This document shows, one piece after another, positions 16,258 to 20,291 of a DNA stretch of 23,572 nucleotides. The first letter of the stretch is position 1. Every line of letters starts with the position of its first letter. Source of the stretch: Nitrososphaerota archaeon (GTDB lineage Archaea > Thermoproteota > Nitrososphaeria_A > Caldarchaeales > Calditenuaceae). Under the pieces are notes generated by a model that saw only the letters and a list, made by a program, of their open reading frames with translations, was not told where the DNA came from and did not search any database. Location: positions 179,383 to 202,954 of the forward strand of contig JAVQSZ010000003.1 of NCBI GenBank assembly GCA_033581555.1, written 5' to 3'. The translations under genes and the position numbers were made by a program.

Positions 16258-17030
16258 GGCCGCGCTACAAGGTTGTGGGCGACGTCGCGCTCGTGAGGCT
16301 CAGGGACGGCGAGGACCCGAAGGAGGTCGTCGATTACCTACTCGGCAGGCTTCCACGGCTGAGGGCCGTGCTGGCGTACGAGGGCGTGGGGGGCGAGCTG
16401 AGGCTACCGAGGGTCAGGCTCCTCCACGGCGAGAGGCCGGTCGTCACCAGGTACGCGGAGCACGGGGTCGTCTACGAGCTCGACGTCGAGCGGATGATGT
16501 TCTCGCTAGGGAACAAGTTCGAGAGGCTGAGGGTCGCCGCATTGACCCGGGACTGGGAGGTGGTCGTCGACGCCTTCGCGGGCATAGGACAGTTCTCGTT
16601 GCCCATCGCGGCCCTAGGGCGAGCTGTGTTCGTCCACGCGATCGAGGTCAACCCCGAGGCCTACGAGTACCTCGTCAGGAACGTGAGGGCCAACGGGCTC
16701 GAGGGGAGGGTCAGGACCCACTTGGGCGACTGCAGGGAGGTCACGAAGGGGCTGGAGGGCGTCGCAGACAGGGTCGTGATGGGCTACTTCCCCGGGACGA
16801 TCGGCTACCTCGACGCCGGGCTCAGGGCCCTGAGGCCAGGTGGAGGTGTGGTCCACCTACACGACCTGGTTGAGGGGGGCTCAGAGGAGGAGTACTGCGC
16901 CAGGGTCGTCGGCGGTGTGAAGGAGAGGGGTTATGACGTCAGGCTGCTGCGGACCGCGCGGGTCAAGTCGTACTCGGCCAGGCTGGACCACGTGGTCCTA
17001 GATCTGCTCTGCCTTCCGAGGCGACCATGA
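16254..17030 (+). CDS. taw2: Trm5/Tyw2 family SAM-dependent tRNA enzyme, most like Taw2 (wyosine aminocarboxypropyltransferase)
   Basis: VVGDVA, EHGVVYELD...MFSLGNKFER, VVDAFAGIGQFSLPIA, EVNPEAY, GDCRE, ADRVVMGY (Taw2-type MGY rather than the Trm5b MNLP), KSYS. Confidence 0.8.
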   Translation: MRPRYKVVGDVALVRLRDGEDPKEVVDYLLGRLPRLRAVLAYEGVGGELRLPRVRLLHGERPVVTRYAEHGVVYELDVERMMFSLGNKFERLRVAALTRDWEVVVDAFAGIGQFSLPIAALGRAVFVHAIEVNPEAYEYLVRNVRANGLEGRVRTHLGDCREVTKGLEGVADRVVMGYFPGTIGYLDAGLRALRPGGGVVHLHDLVEGGSEEEYCARVVGGVKERGYDVRLLRTARVKSYSARLDHVVLDLLCLPRRP

Positions 17031-17910
17031 CCAGCGCGTTAAGCCGCATTAGGGTACTCACTAGGTCCTCGGCGCGCCTGAAGAGCGACCTGAGGCCCGT
17101 CCTCCGCCCCGCCTCCCGCAGCGACCTCGCCAAGTCAGCGAGCTGGTCGACGACGACCGAGTTCCTCAGCTCCACGACCAAGGCGCTCAGCTGCTCGAGC
17201 GCGTCGGCCAGATGGGCCATCGCGAGGGTCTCCTGCCTGCTGGCCGGGGCTAAGGCCTCCTCGACCTCCCTCACGAGGCGCGCGAGGTCGGATGCAATTT
17301 CGGTCAGTATCGACAAGGCGTAGAACGGGGTCTGCTCGTCGGGAATCGCGACCATTTGGGAGACCATCCTCTTCAGGATGGAGGCGTAGCCGGAGCAGTC
17401 CTTGAGCAGCTCCTCGAGCTCCGGGCTCGGGGTTCCGCCGGTGCTCATGTCGGACTCTGCCCTCCTGAGGGCCCTCACGAGGGACTGGAGCGCTACCGAG
17501 AGGGCCTGCTCGATCGACCTGAACGGATCCCCTGAGATCTCGACGACGATCGAGCCCTCCGACTCGAGGGCCACGAACATGCCCTGGAGCCGCTCCCTCA
17601 GCCTCCTCGACCTCACGACCAGTTCCTCTGCCCTGCCGCGCCTCGTCTGGACCCTCACCGAGGAGACGCCGGCCTCGTAGCACGCCACCATCGCGTCCTC
17701 CACCAGCTCGCCGAGCAGGTCCGCGTCCAGGGAGAGCTGGACCGAGGTCCTCCTGCCCGCCGGAACGACCCTCAGGAGCTCCCTCTCCGCGATCACGGTC
17801 ACCGCCGAGCCCTTCCTCAGCCCCGACTCCTCGACCCACTCCTTCGGGAGCGTGATCACATAGGAGCTGCCCCTGAGCTGCTGAATCCTCCTCTCGTGGA
17901 ACCTAGGCAA
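16963..17910 (-). CDS. AbrB/MazE-domain regulator of the archaeal PhoU-fusion type (degenerate C-terminal helical domains)
   Basis: N-terminal ERRIQQLRGSSYVITLPKEWV...GLRKGS.V, then ACYEAG...V and long helical bundles. Confidence 0.8.
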   Translation of the reverse strand: MPRFHERRIQQLRGSSYVITLPKEWVEESGLRKGSAVTVIAERELLRVVPAGRRTSVQLSLDADLLGELVEDAMVACYEAGVSSVRVQTRRGRAEELVVRSRRLRERLQGMFVALESEGSIVVEISGDPFRSIEQALSVALQSLVRALRRAESDMSTGGTPSPELEELLKDCSGYASILKRMVSQMVAIPDEQTPFYALSILTEIASDLARLVREVEEALAPASRQETLAMAHLADALEQLSALVVELRNSVVVDQLADLARSLREAGRRTGLRSLFRRAEDLVSTLMRLNALVMVASEGRADLGPRGPAWPSTT

Positions 17911-17996: not shown

Positions 17997-18287
17997 TTGG
18001 ACGAGAAGGACTCGATCGCCGCCTTCGTTCACATCTGCGCGGAGCCGAACCGCGTCGGCGAGATCGTCTCGAGCCTCTGCTCCTGCTCGAACGTGACGAG
18101 GGTCTTCAGCGTGACGGGCGAGTACGACGTGATCGCGATGGTGAGGGTTCGGGACATCAACGAGCTCCATAGGTTCCTCAGGATGCGCGTGATGAGCTTA
18201 GTCGGCGTGAAGGGCGTCGAGACGTCGATCGTGCTGGAAGAGAGAATGGCTGACGGTGAAGCCGCGAAACCTCCGACATCAAAATAA
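17997..18287 (+). CDS. Stand-alone Lrp/AsnC ligand-binding (RAM) domain protein
   Basis: AFVHI..EP, V..VFSVTGEYDVIAMV, I.EL..F, L.GV..VETSIVL; no HTH. Confidence 0.88.
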   Translation: MDEKDSIAAFVHICAEPNRVGEIVSSLCSCSNVTRVFSVTGEYDVIAMVRVRDINELHRFLRMRVMSLVGVKGVETSIVLEERMADGEAAKPPTSK

Positions 18288-18315
18288 CTAGGCCAAGAGG
18301 TCACTGAGGGGGTCC

Positions 18316-18429
18316 TCAGAGCTCCTCCTCTTCCCACTCCTCTTCCTCCCACTCCTCCTCGAAGTCCTCCTCCTCTTCCCACTCCTCCCATTCTTCTTCC
18401 TCTTCCGAGAAACGCCTCGTGATCAGCAC
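18316..18429 (-). CDS. Putative 37-aa poly-Glu/Trp acidic micropeptide (not in the ORF track)
   Basis: GTG 18429 to TGA 18316 gives MLITRRFSEEEEEWEEWEEEEDFEEEWEEEEWEEEEL. GAG/GAA variation falls at third codon positions, and a minus-strand TATA TTAATATA (18451-18458) lies ~23 nt upstream. Confidence 0.65.
   Translation of the reverse strand: MLITRRFSEEEEEWEEWEEEEDFEEEWEEEEWEEEEL
18322..18406. repeat. Low-complexity polypyrimidine (plus strand) tract of imperfect CTCCTCTTCCCA repeats
   Basis: Almost only C/T on the plus strand, with recurring ctcctcttcccactc units; encodes the Glu/Trp peptide on the minus strand. Confidence 0.8.
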
Positions 18430-18459
18430 ACCCGCTACCCACGGCCCCCGTATATTAAG

Positions 18460-18830
18460 TTGAACGGGCCGAGTCGTGGAGGGGCGTCCGGCGTAGACGG
18501 TCCGAGAAGGCCCACCGCAGCCGCGAGTCGGCCCCGATCCACATCGCTAGACCTACCGCTGAATGACCTCCGCAAAGGACGCATGACCGAGGAGGTGCCG
18601 GACCAGGCGTCTCACGCGGTGACCTGTGAACGCTGGGCCCGGACCGTCTTAGCGGGAATCGGCAGCGCACGGCTACGCACGCCTGTACCACTGACGGGGA
18701 CGTCGGCAGGGACACAGGATAACGAATGGCCCAGTAACGGGGCGCCCGTCGCCTCACGGCAACACGCGCCGAGAGAGCAGAGCGCTCGCCACCTGCCTGC
18801 GAAGCCATCAGCCAGTAGACAGTCGTCATG
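18460..18830 (-). ncRNA. Candidate structured non-coding RNA (unassigned; strand uncertain)
   Basis: No credible protein; nested stems 18495-18504/18640-18649 and 18509-18514/18634-18639; minus-strand TATA-like TTAATAA at 18855-18861. Confidence 0.3.
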
Positions 18831-18850
18831 AGGAAGATTCGAGATATGCA

Positions 18851-18917
18851 ATCTTTATTAACAGTCTATAAGATCGCAAAATCAAACTTAAATTTAAGAA
18901 GGTTAACAGACAAAGAT
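18851..18917 (+). promoter_or_regulatory. Promoter/operator region of the ABC transporter operon
   Basis: AT-rich; perfect 12-bp palindrome CTTAAATTTAAG (18887-18898) at the TATA position before ATG 18918; direct repeat TTAACAG at 18858 and 18903. Confidence 0.6.
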
Positions 18918-20291
18918 ATGGCTCGTGGTGAGGTCTCTAGGCGTGGATTCCTCTCGGCCCTAGCTGGTGGGGTCGCTGGGGTCGTCGTCGGCGCCGGGCT
19001 CGGTTGGTCTTTGAGGTCTCCTGAGGTCAGGGAGGTGGTCCGGACGGCCACCGTCACAGCGGCCGGCGGCGAGAGAACGATCACGGTGACGCGCCCAGGG
19101 CCGGAGACGACCGTGACCGTGACGAAGGAGGTCACGCCGGTCAGGAAGTTGCCGAAGGACACGGTGAGGATCGGCGTCCTCGGCATCAGGACGGGTCCGT
19201 GGGGGACTTATGGGACGTTCATCGAGCAGGGAGCACGGCTCGCGGCCGAGGAGATAAACGCAGCTGGGGGGATCCTCGGCAGCAAGATCGAGCTCTCGAT
19301 CCGAGACGAGGCGGCGGACGTCGTCAAGCAGGCCAGGGAGCTCGTGGAGGCCGAGAGGGTCGACTTCCTGGTGGGCGTTGACTCCAGCGGGAACGCTATG
19401 AGGGTGGGGCCGCTGATGCAGGAGCTGAACAAGATCTTGATCGTGACCCACGCAGCGACCCACAGGGTGACTGAGGAGCTCGTCTATAAGCAGAGGATCA
19501 AGCAGATCTTCCGGGTCTCCGTTCCGGTCTACCAGGACGGTATCCTAGCAGCATTCGTGGCCAAGGACCTCCCGGTGAAGAAGTGGGCGGGCATCAACCC
19601 GGACTACGAGTACGGCAGGGTATCTTGGGACTTCTTCAAGAGGACGCTCTCGGCGCTGAGGCCGGACGTCGAGTTCGTCGCTGAGCAGTTCAATAGGAGT
19701 CCCGGAACCACGGACTTCGGCCCGTTCATCTCTGCGGTGATCGCCGCGGGCGCGGAGGGCCTCTTCTCGGTGAACTGGGCCCTCGAGGCGGTGACGATGC
19801 ACAAGCAGCTTAAGGCGCTGGGAGCTTACGAGAAGCTAAGGGCGGTAATCAACCCGATGGGCTACTCGACCGACGTAGTCTACGAGCTCGGAGCTGACTA
19901 TCCGACGGCCCCGCTCGGGACCTGGGTCTCGGCCAGGTACGTTTGGTTCTACCCCGACATCGAGGTCAACAGGGCTTTCGTGAGGGCCTTCAGGGCCAAG
20001 TACGGGAAGTACCCGCCGTACTCCGCCGAGACCACCTACACCGCGATCTACCTCATCAAGTCGATCCTGGAGTCCGCCGGGACCTTCGACATCGACGCGC
20101 TGATCAAGCAAATCGAGGGGCGCGTTATAATCTCGCCAGCCGGCGTCAGGTGGGTGAGGCCTGAGGACCACCAAGCGATATATGACGTTCCGTACGGCAA
20201 GATCTCGCATACCGGAGGAGAGATCCCGGTCCTCACGAGCCTCGTCACGAGGTCGGCCTGGGAGTACTACAGGTCGCCTCCGTTCTCGTGA
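18918..20291 (+). CDS. Liv/HAAT-type ABC transporter substrate-binding protein with Tat signal and Thr/Val-rich linker
   Basis: MARGEVSRRGFLSALAGGVAGVVVGAGLGW (twin-Arg), T-x-T-V-T repeats, GARLAAEEINAAGGILG, NPDYEYG, DFGPFIS, RPEDHQA. Confidence 0.9.
   Translation: MARGEVSRRGFLSALAGGVAGVVVGAGLGWSLRSPEVREVVRTATVTAAGGERTITVTRPGPETTVTVTKEVTPVRKLPKDTVRIGVLGIRTGPWGTYGTFIEQGARLAAEEINAAGGILGSKIELSIRDEAADVVKQARELVEAERVDFLVGVDSSGNAMRVGPLMQELNKILIVTHAATHRVTEELVYKQRIKQIFRVSVPVYQDGILAAFVAKDLPVKKWAGINPDYEYGRVSWDFFKRTLSALRPDVEFVAEQFNRSPGTTDFGPFISAVIAAGAEGLFSVNWALEAVTMHKQLKALGAYEKLRAVINPMGYSTDVVYELGADYPTAPLGTWVSARYVWFYPDIEVNRAFVRAFRAKYGKYPPYSAETTYTAIYLIKSILESAGTFDIDALIKQIEGRVIISPAGVRWVRPEDHQAIYDVPYGKISHTGGEIPVLTSLVTRSAWEYYRSPPFS

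What the first reader, a model, noticed from the sequence alone, without database searches (positions are those of the whole stretch)
18316..18460. Hidden 37-aa Glu/Trp micropeptide gene with its own TATA box: an archaeal DSS1/Sem1-like or DNA-mimic peptide?
Seen: minus-strand ORF MLITRRFSEEEEEWEEWEEEEDFEEEWEEEEWEEEEL* with 22 Glu, 1 Asp, 4 Trp and 2 Phe. Aromatics are spaced every 3-6 residues, the tract varies at GAG/GAA wobble positions, and TTAATATA sits ~23 nt upstream, as for other leaderless genes here. It falls below the ORF-track cutoff. Established: small disordered acidic-aromatic proteins include eukaryotic DSS1/Sem1 (proteasome lid, BRCA2-RPA ssDNA mimic, ubiquitin binding) and acidic activation domains; Caldiarchaeum encodes a eukaryote-like ubiquitin system. 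Inference: it may be an unannotated ssDNA/RNA mimic, chaperone or proteasome/ubiquitin partner. The resemblance is compositional, not demonstrated homology.
Basis: partly seen in the sequence, partly recalled or inferred. Interest (0 to 1): 0.75.

Follow-up and report, generated by a model that had tools for sequence, protein, structure and literature searches.

The report
Conserved archaeal poly-glutamate/tryptophan micropeptide gene
A tiny, never-annotated gene for an extremely acidic 37-residue peptide is real and conserved across a whole archaeal phylum, usually right beside the ribosome-recycling gene ABCE1, which points to an unknown small player in protein synthesis.

Summary
The ORF is there exactly as described (window 18316-18429, minus strand, GTG start), and it is the only such acidic tract in the genome.

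**A real gene, not a microsatellite.**
- 75 of the 76 genomes of the window's class carry a 28-46 aa ORF of the same build: a short N-terminal cap, then Glu with no K/R/H, 4-9 W/F/Y, and usually a final Phe followed by a stop.
- Variation falls on third codon positions: 52/48/225 variable sites at positions 1/2/3.
- An AT-rich box lies 20-40 nt upstream in 65 of 75, and a T-run follows the stop in 57 of 75.
- None of the 20 peptide sequences looked up is in a collection of 15 billion proteins. Pfam, NCBIfam and PDB give nothing.

**Wider picture.** The same kind of ORF, usually ending in Trp, occurs across the phylum (Bathyarchaeia, Desulfurococcales, Thermofilales and others). There it typically sits directly upstream of ABCE1 on the same strand. 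Looking upstream of ABCE1 found it in 4 of 5 genomes where pattern searches had failed. In the window's class it is unlinked from ABCE1 yet retained.

**Reading.** It is most likely a trans-acting acidic-aromatic peptide tied to ABCE1 and translation. The mechanism is inferred. DSS1/Sem1 membership is not supported.

The parts
18451..18458 (-). TATA-like box TTAATATA, 21 nt upstream of the GTG start, as expected for a leaderless or near-leaderless archaeal mRNA
   Evidence: sequence. The same box at the same distance is seen in genus relatives (L038, L043, L045; CTTTATAAG in L037, L042, L044). An AT-rich 8-mer is centred -40..-20 in 65 of 75 class members.
18316..18429 (-). Micropeptide ORF, 37 codons plus TGA stop (18316-18318). 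GTG start, N-terminal cap LITRRFS, then 30 residues of Glu/Asp with W14, W17, F23, W27, W32 and a terminal Leu
   Evidence: Orthologous ORFs are present in 75 of 76 genomes of the class. Third-position variation dominates, 52/48/225.
18304..18319 (-). Small hairpin CUGAGG-ACCC-CCUCAG that includes the stop codon
   Evidence: MFE and centroid structures. Its function is not shown.
18281..18287 (-). T-run TTATTTT 29-35 nt after the stop: a likely oligo-T terminator. It overlaps the stop codon of the convergent RAM-domain gene
   Evidence: A T4+ run lies within 60 nt of the stop in 57 of 75 class members, mostly 20-40 nt downstream.
17997..18287 (+). Convergent neighbour: stand-alone Lrp/AsnC ligand-binding (RAM) domain protein, 96 aa. 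This is context, not shown to be a partner
   Evidence: Pfam AsnC_trans_reg 6.6e-17. It lies convergent within 4-526 nt of the peptide's stop in 19 of 31 class loci. It was not seen next to the peptide outside the class.
16963..17910 (-). AbrB(MazE)-type plus PhoU-like protein on the same strand further downstream. This is context
   Evidence: One search finds the MazE_antitoxin domain. The same cluster lies next to the peptide in the own family. Proteins with MazE_antitoxin + PhoU architecture lie next to the peptide in 3 out-of-class loci (L102, L106, L110), but no tblastn link was found.

Best explanation
Window 18316-18429 (minus strand) is a real, translated micro-gene with its own TATA box and oligo-T terminator. 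It belongs to a previously unannotated family found across the phylum. The peptides are 23-56 aa. They have a short hydrophobic/basic N-terminal cap, then an uninterrupted run of Glu (no Lys/Arg/His) punctuated by 3-9 Trp/Phe, and they end directly in an aromatic or hydrophobic residue followed by a stop. In most lineages of the phylum the gene sits immediately upstream of ABCE1, the ribosome-recycling ATPase. In the window's class it has moved to a locus of its own and was nevertheless kept in 75 of 76 genomes. This argues that the peptide itself acts in trans. The most likely mechanism (inferred, not shown) is as follows. The disordered or helical polyanion uses its Glu runs for electrostatic steering and its Trp/Phe, including the C-terminal aromatic carboxylate, as anchors. 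It docks on a basic/hydrophobic site of ABCE1 or of another factor of the recycling/translation machinery, as the acidic tail of the ribosomal stalk protein aP1 docks on ABCE1 NBD1. It thereby modulates ribosome splitting or factor recruitment. My estimates: real conserved coding gene about 0.9; function tied to ABCE1/translation about 0.5; acting in trans as a binding peptide about 0.45; specifically a stalk-tail-like ligand of ABCE1 about 0.15-0.2.
For: Shown:
- The ORF and its uniqueness in the genome.
- Six-frame inspection of the hits of DNA searches found an ORF of the same build in 75 of 76 genomes of the class.
- Across 328 ungapped codon columns in 10 genera, variable sites at positions 1/2/3 number 52/48/225.
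- Among the 75: start ATG 68, GTG 7. Last residue F 58, V 6, W 3, L 2, I 2, P 2, T 2. No K/R/H after the first EEE in 75 of 75. An AT-rich box is centred -40..-20 in 65 of 75. A T-run follows the stop in 57 of 75.
- The RNA is less structured than shuffles (z = +1.79), and Rfam finds nothing.
- Phylum: the DNA query hits 229 of 401 sampled genomes. All 18 out-of-class loci inspected are such ORFs, some with a GGAGG Shine-Dalgarno.
- Named records cover Bathyarchaeia, Desulfurococcales, Thermofilales, Thermoproteus, Brockarchaeota, Methanomethylicia, Nitrososphaerota, Caldarchaeum and Wolframiiraptor.
- ABCE1 link, first set: among out-of-class genomes where both places were visible (and loci), the peptide lies directly upstream on the same strand in 27 of 55, and within 1.5 kb in 31 of 55.
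- ABCE1 link, second set: among the 80 loci, ABCE1 is in tandem downstream in 30 and divergent in 4.
- Predictive test: in 5 complete genomes where the pattern search had failed, 4 have the acidic/Trp ORF just upstream of ABCE1.

From a paper: C-terminal hydrophobic residues of the aP1 tail bind a cavity of ABCE1 NBD1 and activate it (PMC6125642, passages read).

Inferred: trans action, from retention of the unlinked gene in the class.
Against: - There is no expression or peptide evidence for any member.
- No binding evidence was obtained.
- Homology between the Phe-ending peptides of the class and the Trp-ending ABCE1-adjacent peptides cannot be proven for such low-complexity sequence. It rests on shared architecture and continuous distribution.
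- In the window's class the gene is never next to ABCE1 (13 of 13 genomes checked by hand; the own ABCE1 is on contig C5).
- Adjacency elsewhere could reflect cis regulation rather than partnership.
- Aromatic spacing varies between lineages and does not form one helical face in the AF2 helix. This fits sticky anchors in a disordered chain, but gives no defined interface.
- The peptide differs from the own aP1 tail, which ends ...KEEEALSGLAALFG.
- About 24 of 55 out-of-class genomes show no adjacency.
- The family was not found in family f5 (3 of 41 genomes hit the pattern; all three hits are C-termini of proteins of about 509 aa).
Confidence: 0.45

Rival explanations
1. Cis-acting sensor ORF. 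What matters is the act of translating a hard-to-translate poly-Glu/Trp ORF, not the peptide. Ribosome destabilisation on N-terminal acidic runs, slow termination after the final Trp/Phe, or failure to recycle at its stop codon would control read-through, reinitiation or termination into the downstream gene. That gene is ABCE1 in most lineages, which would give feedback on recycling capacity.
For: - Tandem position directly upstream of ABCE1 in many families.
- In family f21 the spacer is only about 40-75 nt. It holds a T-run and then a GGTG-like Shine-Dalgarno 6-9 nt before the ABCE1 start, as expected for a bicistronic or attenuator-like unit.
- N-terminal Asp/Glu-rich nascent chains abort translation in bacteria and eukaryotes (PMC9718836, passages read; further papers seen only as listing abstracts).
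Against: - In the window and in all 13 class genomes checked, the gene is unlinked from ABCE1.
- Here the next gene is convergent and a terminator follows, yet the ORF is kept in 75 of 76 genomes.
- In Bathyarchaeia the spacer carries a T-run and then a TATA-like box about 35-45 nt before ABCE1, which implies separate transcription units.
- The cited paper reports no N-terminal Asp/Glu avoidance in the one archaeal proteome it names.
Confidence: 0.17
2. One reading: a DSS1/Sem1-like or nucleic-acid-mimic peptide that binds DNA/RNA-binding surfaces (SSB/RPA, chromatin proteins, proteasome or ubiquitin-system partners), unrelated to ABCE1.
For: - The composition (acidic runs with Trp/Phe anchors) resembles DSS1 and acidic chaperone motifs. 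This is recalled knowledge, not tested here.
- The peptide has no basic residue after the cap.
- The genome does encode E2-like proteins.
Against: - The DSS1_SEM1 profile gives no match.
- The family is present across lineages far beyond the window's class.
- Of the 63 neighbour ORFs scanned with Pfam (13, 50), the only proteasome, ubiquitin, SSB or histone gene is one proteasome subunit about 800 nt from the peptide in L105.
- The recurrent neighbour is ABCE1.
Confidence: 0.12
3. A generic polyanion: an abundant, heat-stable, highly charged peptide acting as a non-specific solubiliser or holdase, or as a cation (Mg2+/K+/polyamine) buffer in thermophiles, with no specific partner.
For: - Extreme charge and no K/R/H.
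- Tolerance of length and spacing changes between lineages.
- Most named carriers are thermophile or sediment lineages.
Against: - The number and kind of aromatic residues and the terminal aromatic residue are conserved, which a pure counter-ion would not need.
- There is a single copy per genome.
- The persistent position next to ABCE1 is unexplained by this reading.
Confidence: 0.1
4. Not a gene: a (CTC)n-like microsatellite, a spurious ORF, or a purine-rich non-coding RNA.
For: - The tract is an imperfect tandem repeat.
- No gene caller has it.
- There are no RNA data.
Against: - Frame, start and stop are kept in 75 of 76 class genomes and in all 18 out-of-class loci inspected.
- Third-position bias is 52/48/225.
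- TGG/TTY codons are conserved, and promoter and terminator signals are conserved.
- RNA folding is weaker than in shuffles, and Rfam finds nothing.
Confidence: 0.03

Closest known systems
C-terminal tail of the archaeal ribosomal stalk protein aP1 (P-stalk; Pfam Ribosomal_60s)
   Same: Both are an acidic stretch ending in hydrophobic/aromatic residues at the very C-terminus. The aP1 tail binds ABCE1 NBD1 and also aEF1A and aEF2 (PMC6125642, passages), and the micropeptide gene is the usual neighbour of ABCE1.
   Different: The micropeptide is free-standing, with no dimerisation domain and no Lys in the acidic part. It carries several internal Trp/Phe and ends directly in F/W rather than L..LF(G). 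The own genome has a normal aP1 elsewhere. Binding is untested.
DSS1/Sem1 (Pfam DSS1_SEM1)
   Same: Both are small, very acidic and presumably disordered, with Trp/Phe embedded in acidic runs that anchor it to basic grooves of partners (recalled knowledge).
   Different: There is no profile match. The micropeptide is half the size, has no C-terminal non-acidic helix, and occurs in archaea. Its genomic association is with ABCE1 rather than with proteasome lid or repair genes.
N-terminal region of eIF3j/Hcr1
   Same: It is an auxiliary factor whose N-terminal part lies at ABCE1 NBD1, in a position similar to the aP1 peptide, and it stimulates ABCE1-dependent splitting (PMC7780240, passages). An acidic motif centred on a Trp is recalled from other literature and was not checked here.
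   Different: eIF3j is a dimeric helical protein of about 250-270 residues (size recalled) that binds the 40S subunit. No homology could be tested.
Regulatory leader ORFs and acidic ribosome-destabilising sequences (for example the MgtL-type sensor; leader peptides upstream of ribosome-binding ABC-F ATPases)
   Same: A short ORF directly upstream of a ribosome-binding twin-ABC ATPase. N-terminal Asp/Glu runs are known to abort translation (PMC9718836, passages).
   Different: In the window's class the ORF has no downstream target gene and has its own terminator. The peptide's composition and end are conserved over a phylum, which is unusual for leaders. The MgtL and ABC-F examples are recalled, or were seen only as abstracts.
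LysW-type amino-group carrier proteins
   Same: Small archaeal/bacterial proteins with an acidic, Trp-containing C-terminal tail. Look-alikes turned up in the pattern scan (L165, L166, L194). The name is my recollection, not a tool result.
   Different: Those have an N-terminal zinc ribbon (CxxC...CxxC). The micropeptide has no Cys and no folded domain.

Membership tests
DSS1/Sem1 (PF05160) | Significant match to the DSS1_SEM1 profile | tested here: not met
   Pfam scan of the peptide at E<=1 found no family. The profile searched against the whole own genome in six frames at E<=10 gave 0 matches. Caveat: HMMER's composition filters handle poly-Glu badly.
DSS1/Sem1 (PF05160) | About 70-90 aa, with two acidic/aromatic blocks followed by a non-acidic C-terminal helix (recalled definition) | tested here: not met
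   Class members are 28-46 aa and end inside the acidic run, directly at an aromatic residue.
DSS1/Sem1 (PF05160) | Binds PCI-domain lid subunits, BRCA2 or RPA | not testable with these tools
   Needs pull-down or binding assays.
Ribosomal P-stalk protein aP1 (PF00428) | N-terminal dimerisation domain that anchors to aP0 | tested here: not met
   The peptide has only a 7-residue cap. The own aP1 (109-codon frame) lies on contig C4.
Ribosomal P-stalk protein aP1 (PF00428) | Acidic linker ending in conserved hydrophobic residues that dock on ABCE1 or translational GTPases | tested here: inconclusive
   An acidic run plus a terminal F/W/L/V/I is present in 71 of 75 class members. However, the motif differs from ...LSGLAALFG, and docking could not be assessed.
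Regulatory leader peptide / uORF | Lies in the 5' leader of the regulated gene on the same transcript | tested here: not met
   In the window, the next gene is convergent, a T-run follows the stop, and ABCE1 is on another contig. The feature is probably met in family f21, which has a short spacer with a Shine-Dalgarno before ABCE1.
Regulatory leader peptide / uORF | Translation of the ORF changes expression of the downstream gene | not testable with these tools
   Needs reporter assays.
LysW-type carrier protein | N-terminal zinc ribbon with four Cys | tested here: not met
   There is no Cys in the window's peptide or in the 75 class members.
Structured non-coding RNA | Rfam match, or folding more stable than shuffled sequence | tested here: not met
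   No Rfam family reaches its gathering score in the window. Folding z-score is +1.79.

The most novel reading that the evidence does not exclude
The family is an ancient, free-standing 'acidic tail in trans': a microprotein cofactor of the ABCE1 ribosome-recycling machinery across Thermoproteota. It would compete with or substitute for the P-stalk tail at the multivalent docking patch on ABCE1 NBD1 (the patch also approached by eIF3j in eukaryotes) and so gate ribosome splitting or the hand-over to initiation. It would be the first microprotein regulator of ribosome recycling, and a possible archaeal forerunner of the acidic-Trp motifs of eukaryotic factors such as eIF3j or DSS1.
Probability: 0.15. 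Interest if true: 0.92.

Novelty: categorically new. Interest (0 to 1): 0.82.

Why it matters
ABCE1 is essential and universal in archaea and eukaryotes, and how its ATPase is switched on and off at the ribosome is still open. A phylum-wide, strongly conserved micro-gene beside it has escaped gene calling: none of the 20 peptide sequences looked up is in a collection of 15 billion proteins. It gives a concrete, testable candidate for a missing small component or sensor of ribosome recycling. It also shows that low-complexity micro-ORFs, which composition filters throw away, can be among the best conserved genes of a lineage. And it offers a natural test case for how archaeal ribosomes translate a nearly pure poly-Glu chain from the N-terminus. 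Members exist in a family of complete 1.8-3.0 Mb genomes (f21), so bench tests should be feasible if genetically tractable species are among them.

Tried and rejected
- **Profile searches.** They fail on this composition. The same profile over the 76 class genomes found only 24, although DNA search plus six-frame reading finds 75.
- **Exact look-ups.** 20 sequences (18 loci, two with alternative starts) gave no entry.
- **Family and structure libraries.** Pfam, NCBIfam on 6 members, PDB sequences and the ESM Atlas (best score 0.82, no lead) gave nothing.
- **RNA features.** Rfam and tRNA scans of the window found nothing.
- **Sequencing runs.** No RNA holder is listed. Read laying was not used because only contigs were on offer.
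- **Complex prediction, own ABCE1 (alignment A3) with the peptide (A1).** The queue was full at five real tries. The job then ran: no verdict (score 0.00, mark 0.32, controls not folded). I count this as neither for nor against binding.
- **AF2 of the peptide alignment.** It gives one long helix with pLDDT 90.7. I treat this as the usual behaviour of poly-Glu, not as a fold.
- **Synteny bridge.** I tried to bridge the class locus to out-of-class loci through the AbrB-PhoU, RAM or Trm5 neighbours. There were no tblastn hits at 1e-6; only the Pfam architecture is shared in three loci.
- **RAM-domain neighbour as partner.** Considered and not pursued. It is convergent, present in 19 of 31 class loci only, and absent next to the peptide outside the class.
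- **C-terminal Trp/Phe as an Fe-S targeting signal.** ABCE1 carries two 4Fe-4S clusters, and in eukaryotes the adaptor Lto1 uses a C-terminal Trp; this is recalled. I considered the idea, but the partner complex is not known in archaea and nothing here tests it.
- **Literature.** Searches found no description of such a peptide or of a small ORF upstream of archaeal ABCE1. The library lacks most subscription journals, and supplements were not read.
- **The search of earlier findings.** It was closed.
Full report
**1.

One search lists a 37-codon ORF at 18316..18429 on the minus strand: MLITRRFSEEEEEWEEWEEEEDFEEEWEEEEWEEEEL. Its start codon is GTG. It has 22 Glu (15 GAG, 7 GAA), 1 Asp, 4 Trp and 2 Phe.

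- TTAATATA lies at 18458-18451, with 21 nt between it and the GTG.
- A small hairpin spans the stop codon.
- A T-run (18287-18281) follows and coincides with the stop of the convergent gene.
- The tract is an imperfect 9/12/15-nt repeat.
- It is the only stretch in the whole 1.43-Mb assembly with at least 15 Glu/Asp in 25 residues in any frame.
- The neighbours are a stand-alone Lrp/AsnC ligand-binding domain protein (17997-18287, plus strand) and an ABC-type binding protein (18828-20291, plus strand).

**2. It is a conserved coding gene**

A DNA search with the region hit 32 of 41 relatives. With the ORF alone, it hit all 76 genomes of the class at loose thresholds. I fetched the places and read them in six frames.

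- 75 of 76 genomes have one ORF of 28-46 codons of the same build.
- The exception is G028 (89% complete), whose candidate is ambiguous.
- An example from a single-contig genome is MLGEKILWAEEEEEFEEEWEEEDFEEEEWEEEEEEEF (L025).

Statistics for the 75 members:

| Feature | Count |
|---|---|
| Start codon | ATG 68, GTG 7 |
| Last residue | F 58, V 6, W 3, L 2, I 2, P 2, T 2 |
| Aromatic residues per peptide | 4-9 |
| Glu+Asp content | 56-74% |
| K/R/H after the first EEE | none in 75 of 75 |

In protein-guided codon alignments within 10 genera, 328 ungapped columns have 52/48/225 variable sites at codon positions 1/2/3. All length differences keep the frame through to a stop that directly follows the last residue.

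Signals of an independent transcription unit are conserved:

- An AT-rich 8-mer is centred 20-40 nt upstream of the start in 65 of 75. The control window closer to the start has 20.
- A T4+ run lies within 60 nt after the stop in 57 of 75, mostly 20-40 nt downstream.

The transcript folds less well than shuffled sequence (z = +1.79), and Rfam has nothing in the window.

**3. It is unannotated**

- Twenty exact look-ups (18 loci) in a collection of about 15 billion proteins found none.
- A profile search of the 5.8-billion-cluster database gave nothing.
- Pfam, NCBIfam, PDB sequences and the ESM Atlas gave nothing.
- HMMER-based tools are nearly blind to this composition. The profile found only 24 of the 76 class genomes.
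- 'No hit' therefore says little about relatives. The exact look-ups do show that gene callers skip it.

**4. The family spans the phylum**

The window's ORF as a DNA query hit 229 of 401 sampled genomes of the phylum. All 18 out-of-class loci returned were ORFs of 23-56 codons with the same plan. They usually end in Trp, for example MFRFEEEEEEEEWEEEWEEEEWEEEEWEEEEEEEW (L104). They have TATA-like boxes upstream and, in three loci, a GGAGG Shine-Dalgarno.

Reading them gave:

- 57 are small open frames (100 codons or fewer) in archaeal records. Their titles include Bathyarchaeia, Thermoprotei, Thermofilales/Thermofilum, Desulfurococcales (Ignisphaera, Hyperthermus, Pyrodictium, Thermogladius), Thermoproteus, Sulfolobales, Methanomethylicia, Brockarchaeota, Nitrososphaerota/Thaumarchaeota, Caldarchaeum, Calditenuaceae and Wolframiiraptor.
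- Four of the 57 are DPANN-titled records (Aenigmatarchaeota, Nanoarchaeia, two Micrarchaeota) with similar small acidic/Trp ORFs that do not end in an aromatic residue.
- 23 are bacterial records, most inside large proteins.

Two families need separate mention:

- In family f5 (41 genomes), the Glu3-Trp-Glu3 pattern hit only the C-termini of membrane proteins of about 509 aa in 3 genomes. The family was therefore not found there.
- In family f21, the pattern hit 3 of 26 genomes, and two of those hits are family-like.

**5. The recurrent neighbour is ABCE1**

A Pfam scan of 50 neighbour ORFs of the 18 out-of-class loci showed ABCE1/RLI (Fer4_RLI, Fer4, two ABC_tran domains) next to the peptide in 8. 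I then searched ABCE1 in the same 401 genomes (391 hit) and compared places by hand and the loci. Of 55 out-of-class genomes for which both places were visible:

| Arrangement | Genomes |
|---|---|
| Peptide match directly upstream of ABCE1, same strand, gap about 400 nt or less | 27 |
| Divergent, with a TFS/RPB9-like zinc-ribbon gene between | 2 |
| Apart by 1.1-1.5 kb | 2 |
| Not adjacent | 24 |

The adjacent cases cover at least 12 of the tool's families. Only 18 of these peptide places were read in six frames; the others are DNA matches.

Independently, among the 80 loci, ABCE1 lies downstream in tandem in 30 and divergently in 4. Leaving out 7 loci of the window's class and 4 DPANN loci, that is 34 of 46.

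A predictive test supports the link. In 5 complete f21 genomes of 5 genera where the pattern had failed, I fetched ABCE1 and looked upstream. Four of the 5 have an Asp/Glu/Trp ORF ending just before ABCE1, for example LVFEEDWEEEFDEFEEEEDWEEEEFEEEEW.

The spacers differ between lineages:

- In Bathyarchaeia there is a T-run and then a TATA-like box about 35-45 nt before ABCE1, which implies separate units.
- In f21 there are only about 40-75 nt, holding a T-run and a GGTG-like Shine-Dalgarno before ABCE1, which makes co-transcription likely.

In the window's class the gene is never next to ABCE1: 13 of 13 genomes checked, and the own ABCE1 is on contig C5. There the common neighbour is the convergent RAM-domain gene, in 19 of 31 loci, with stops as close as 4 nt. 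The upstream neighbours vary.

**6. Mechanism**

Shown: a conserved coding micro-gene, its architecture, and its association with ABCE1.

Inferred: because the class keeps the gene (75 of 76) after it lost its linkage to ABCE1, and keeps the aromatic residues and the hydrophobic/aromatic end, the peptide itself probably acts in trans as a binding element. A precedent for an acidic tail with a hydrophobic C-terminus acting on ABCE1 exists. The aP1 stalk tail binds a cavity on NBD1 through L103, L106 and F107 and is needed for ATPase activation (PMC6125642; abstract and passages of the results and discussion read). In eukaryotes, density assigned to the eIF3j N-terminus occupies a similar position, and eIF3j stimulates splitting (PMC7780240, passages).

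I therefore propose a free acidic-aromatic ligand of ABCE1, or of another stalk-binding factor, that modulates recycling. This step is a hypothesis.

- The own aP1 tail (ending ...KEEEALSGLAALFG) is clearly different.
- The AF2 helix has no single aromatic face.
- I obtained no binding evidence.

**7. Rivals**

- **Cis sensor.** This is the main rival for the family as a whole. N-terminal Asp/Glu runs abort translation in bacteria and eukaryotes (PMC9718836, passages). Related papers on ABC-F factors and eIF2D were seen only as listing abstracts. The f21 arrangement looks bicistronic. However, the model does not explain the unlinked, terminator-flanked gene of the window.
- **DSS1/Sem1 or DNA mimic.** This rests on composition only. 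The DSS1 profile does not match, and no proteasome, ubiquitin or DNA-metabolism neighbour recurs.
- **Generic polyanion.** This does not explain the conserved aromatic pattern or the ABCE1 position.
- **Microsatellite or non-coding RNA.** The evidence in section 2 argues strongly against these.

**8. Caveats**

- Homology of low-complexity peptides cannot be proven. The link between the class's Phe-ending peptides and the ABCE1-adjacent Trp-ending ones rests on architecture, single copy and continuous taxonomic spread.
- Start codons were chosen by rule (first ATG within 14 codons of the acidic run, otherwise GTG/TTG).
- Related genomes are not independent observations.
- The DNA query is GAG-rich, so AT-rich lineages are under-detected, as f21 showed.
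- No expression data exist.

**9. Novelty**

Five literature searches found no description of such a peptide or of a small ORF upstream of archaeal ABCE1. Subscription journals and supplements were not covered. I rate it as a new family of unknown kind and of high interest. The most valuable next steps are detection of the peptide, cis/trans genetics, and binding and ATPase assays with ABCE1.

Noticed in passing
window 18430-18827: About 400 nt between the micropeptide's start and the ABC binding-protein gene are 65-69% G+C, like coding DNA. The two 123-124-codon frames there have no Pfam match, and Rfam finds nothing. In the closest relative, DNA similarity extends only about 100 nt upstream of the peptide.
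   Followed up: partly
window 17997-18287 (+), and L020, L023, L024, L025, L026: The Lrp/AsnC-like neighbour has only the ligand-binding (RAM) domain and no DNA-binding domain. In one genus its stop lies just 4 nt from the micropeptide's stop, on the opposite strand, so the two transcripts must overlap or share a bidirectional terminator.
   Followed up: partly
L036:3915-4673 (-), genome G001: A second acidic/Trp tract in this genome sits inside a larger frame. That frame has a zinc-ribbon-like CxxC...CxxC, a basic stretch, and then an acidic W/F tail resembling the micropeptide (weak DZR hit, E = 0.032). It may be a fused or paralogous form.
   Followed up: partly
L019 (genome G018, contig C21): A second, more degenerate acidic/Trp/Tyr tract lies at the start of an 89-codon open frame, in a genome that also has the normal micropeptide (L028).
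   Followed up: no
L205, L213, L223, L226, L233: spacer between the micropeptide and ABCE1: Desulfurococcales-type loci share a conserved GCCGTCACCACTCATCA in the spacer. Its reverse complement starts with a C-box-like TGATGA. In L233 the region (1321-1374, opposite strand) weakly matches C/D-box sRNA models, below the gathering score. It may be a C/D-box sRNA gene between the two genes.
   Followed up: partly
L116, L117, L122, L167, L200, L208, L224, L227: A TFS/RPB9-like zinc-ribbon gene repeatedly sits between, or beside, the micropeptide and ABCE1.
   Followed up: no
L157, L162, L189, L198 (DPANN-titled records) and L184 (bacterial-titled MAG): These are small acidic/Trp ORFs of 21-35 codons without ABCE1 within 1.5 kb. 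The DPANN ones do not end in an aromatic residue. L184 looks like the Bathyarchaeia type although the record is titled as bacterial.
   Followed up: no
L165, L166, L194 (bacterial records): Small proteins with a zinc ribbon followed by a long acidic Trp-containing tail, reminiscent of LysW-type carrier proteins. That name is my recollection, not a tool result.
   Followed up: no
G000:C7:21459-21860 and G000:C1:95496-95687: The window's genome encodes two E2-like (UQ_con) proteins, so a eukaryote-like ubiquitin system is probably present, but it is not near the micropeptide.
   Followed up: no
window 16963-17910 (-); L102, L106, L110: A protein with an AbrB/MazE-type domain plus PhoU-like region lies near the micropeptide in the own family. 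Proteins of the same Pfam architecture lie next to it in three distant loci, though without detectable sequence similarity at tblastn 1e-6.
   Followed up: partly
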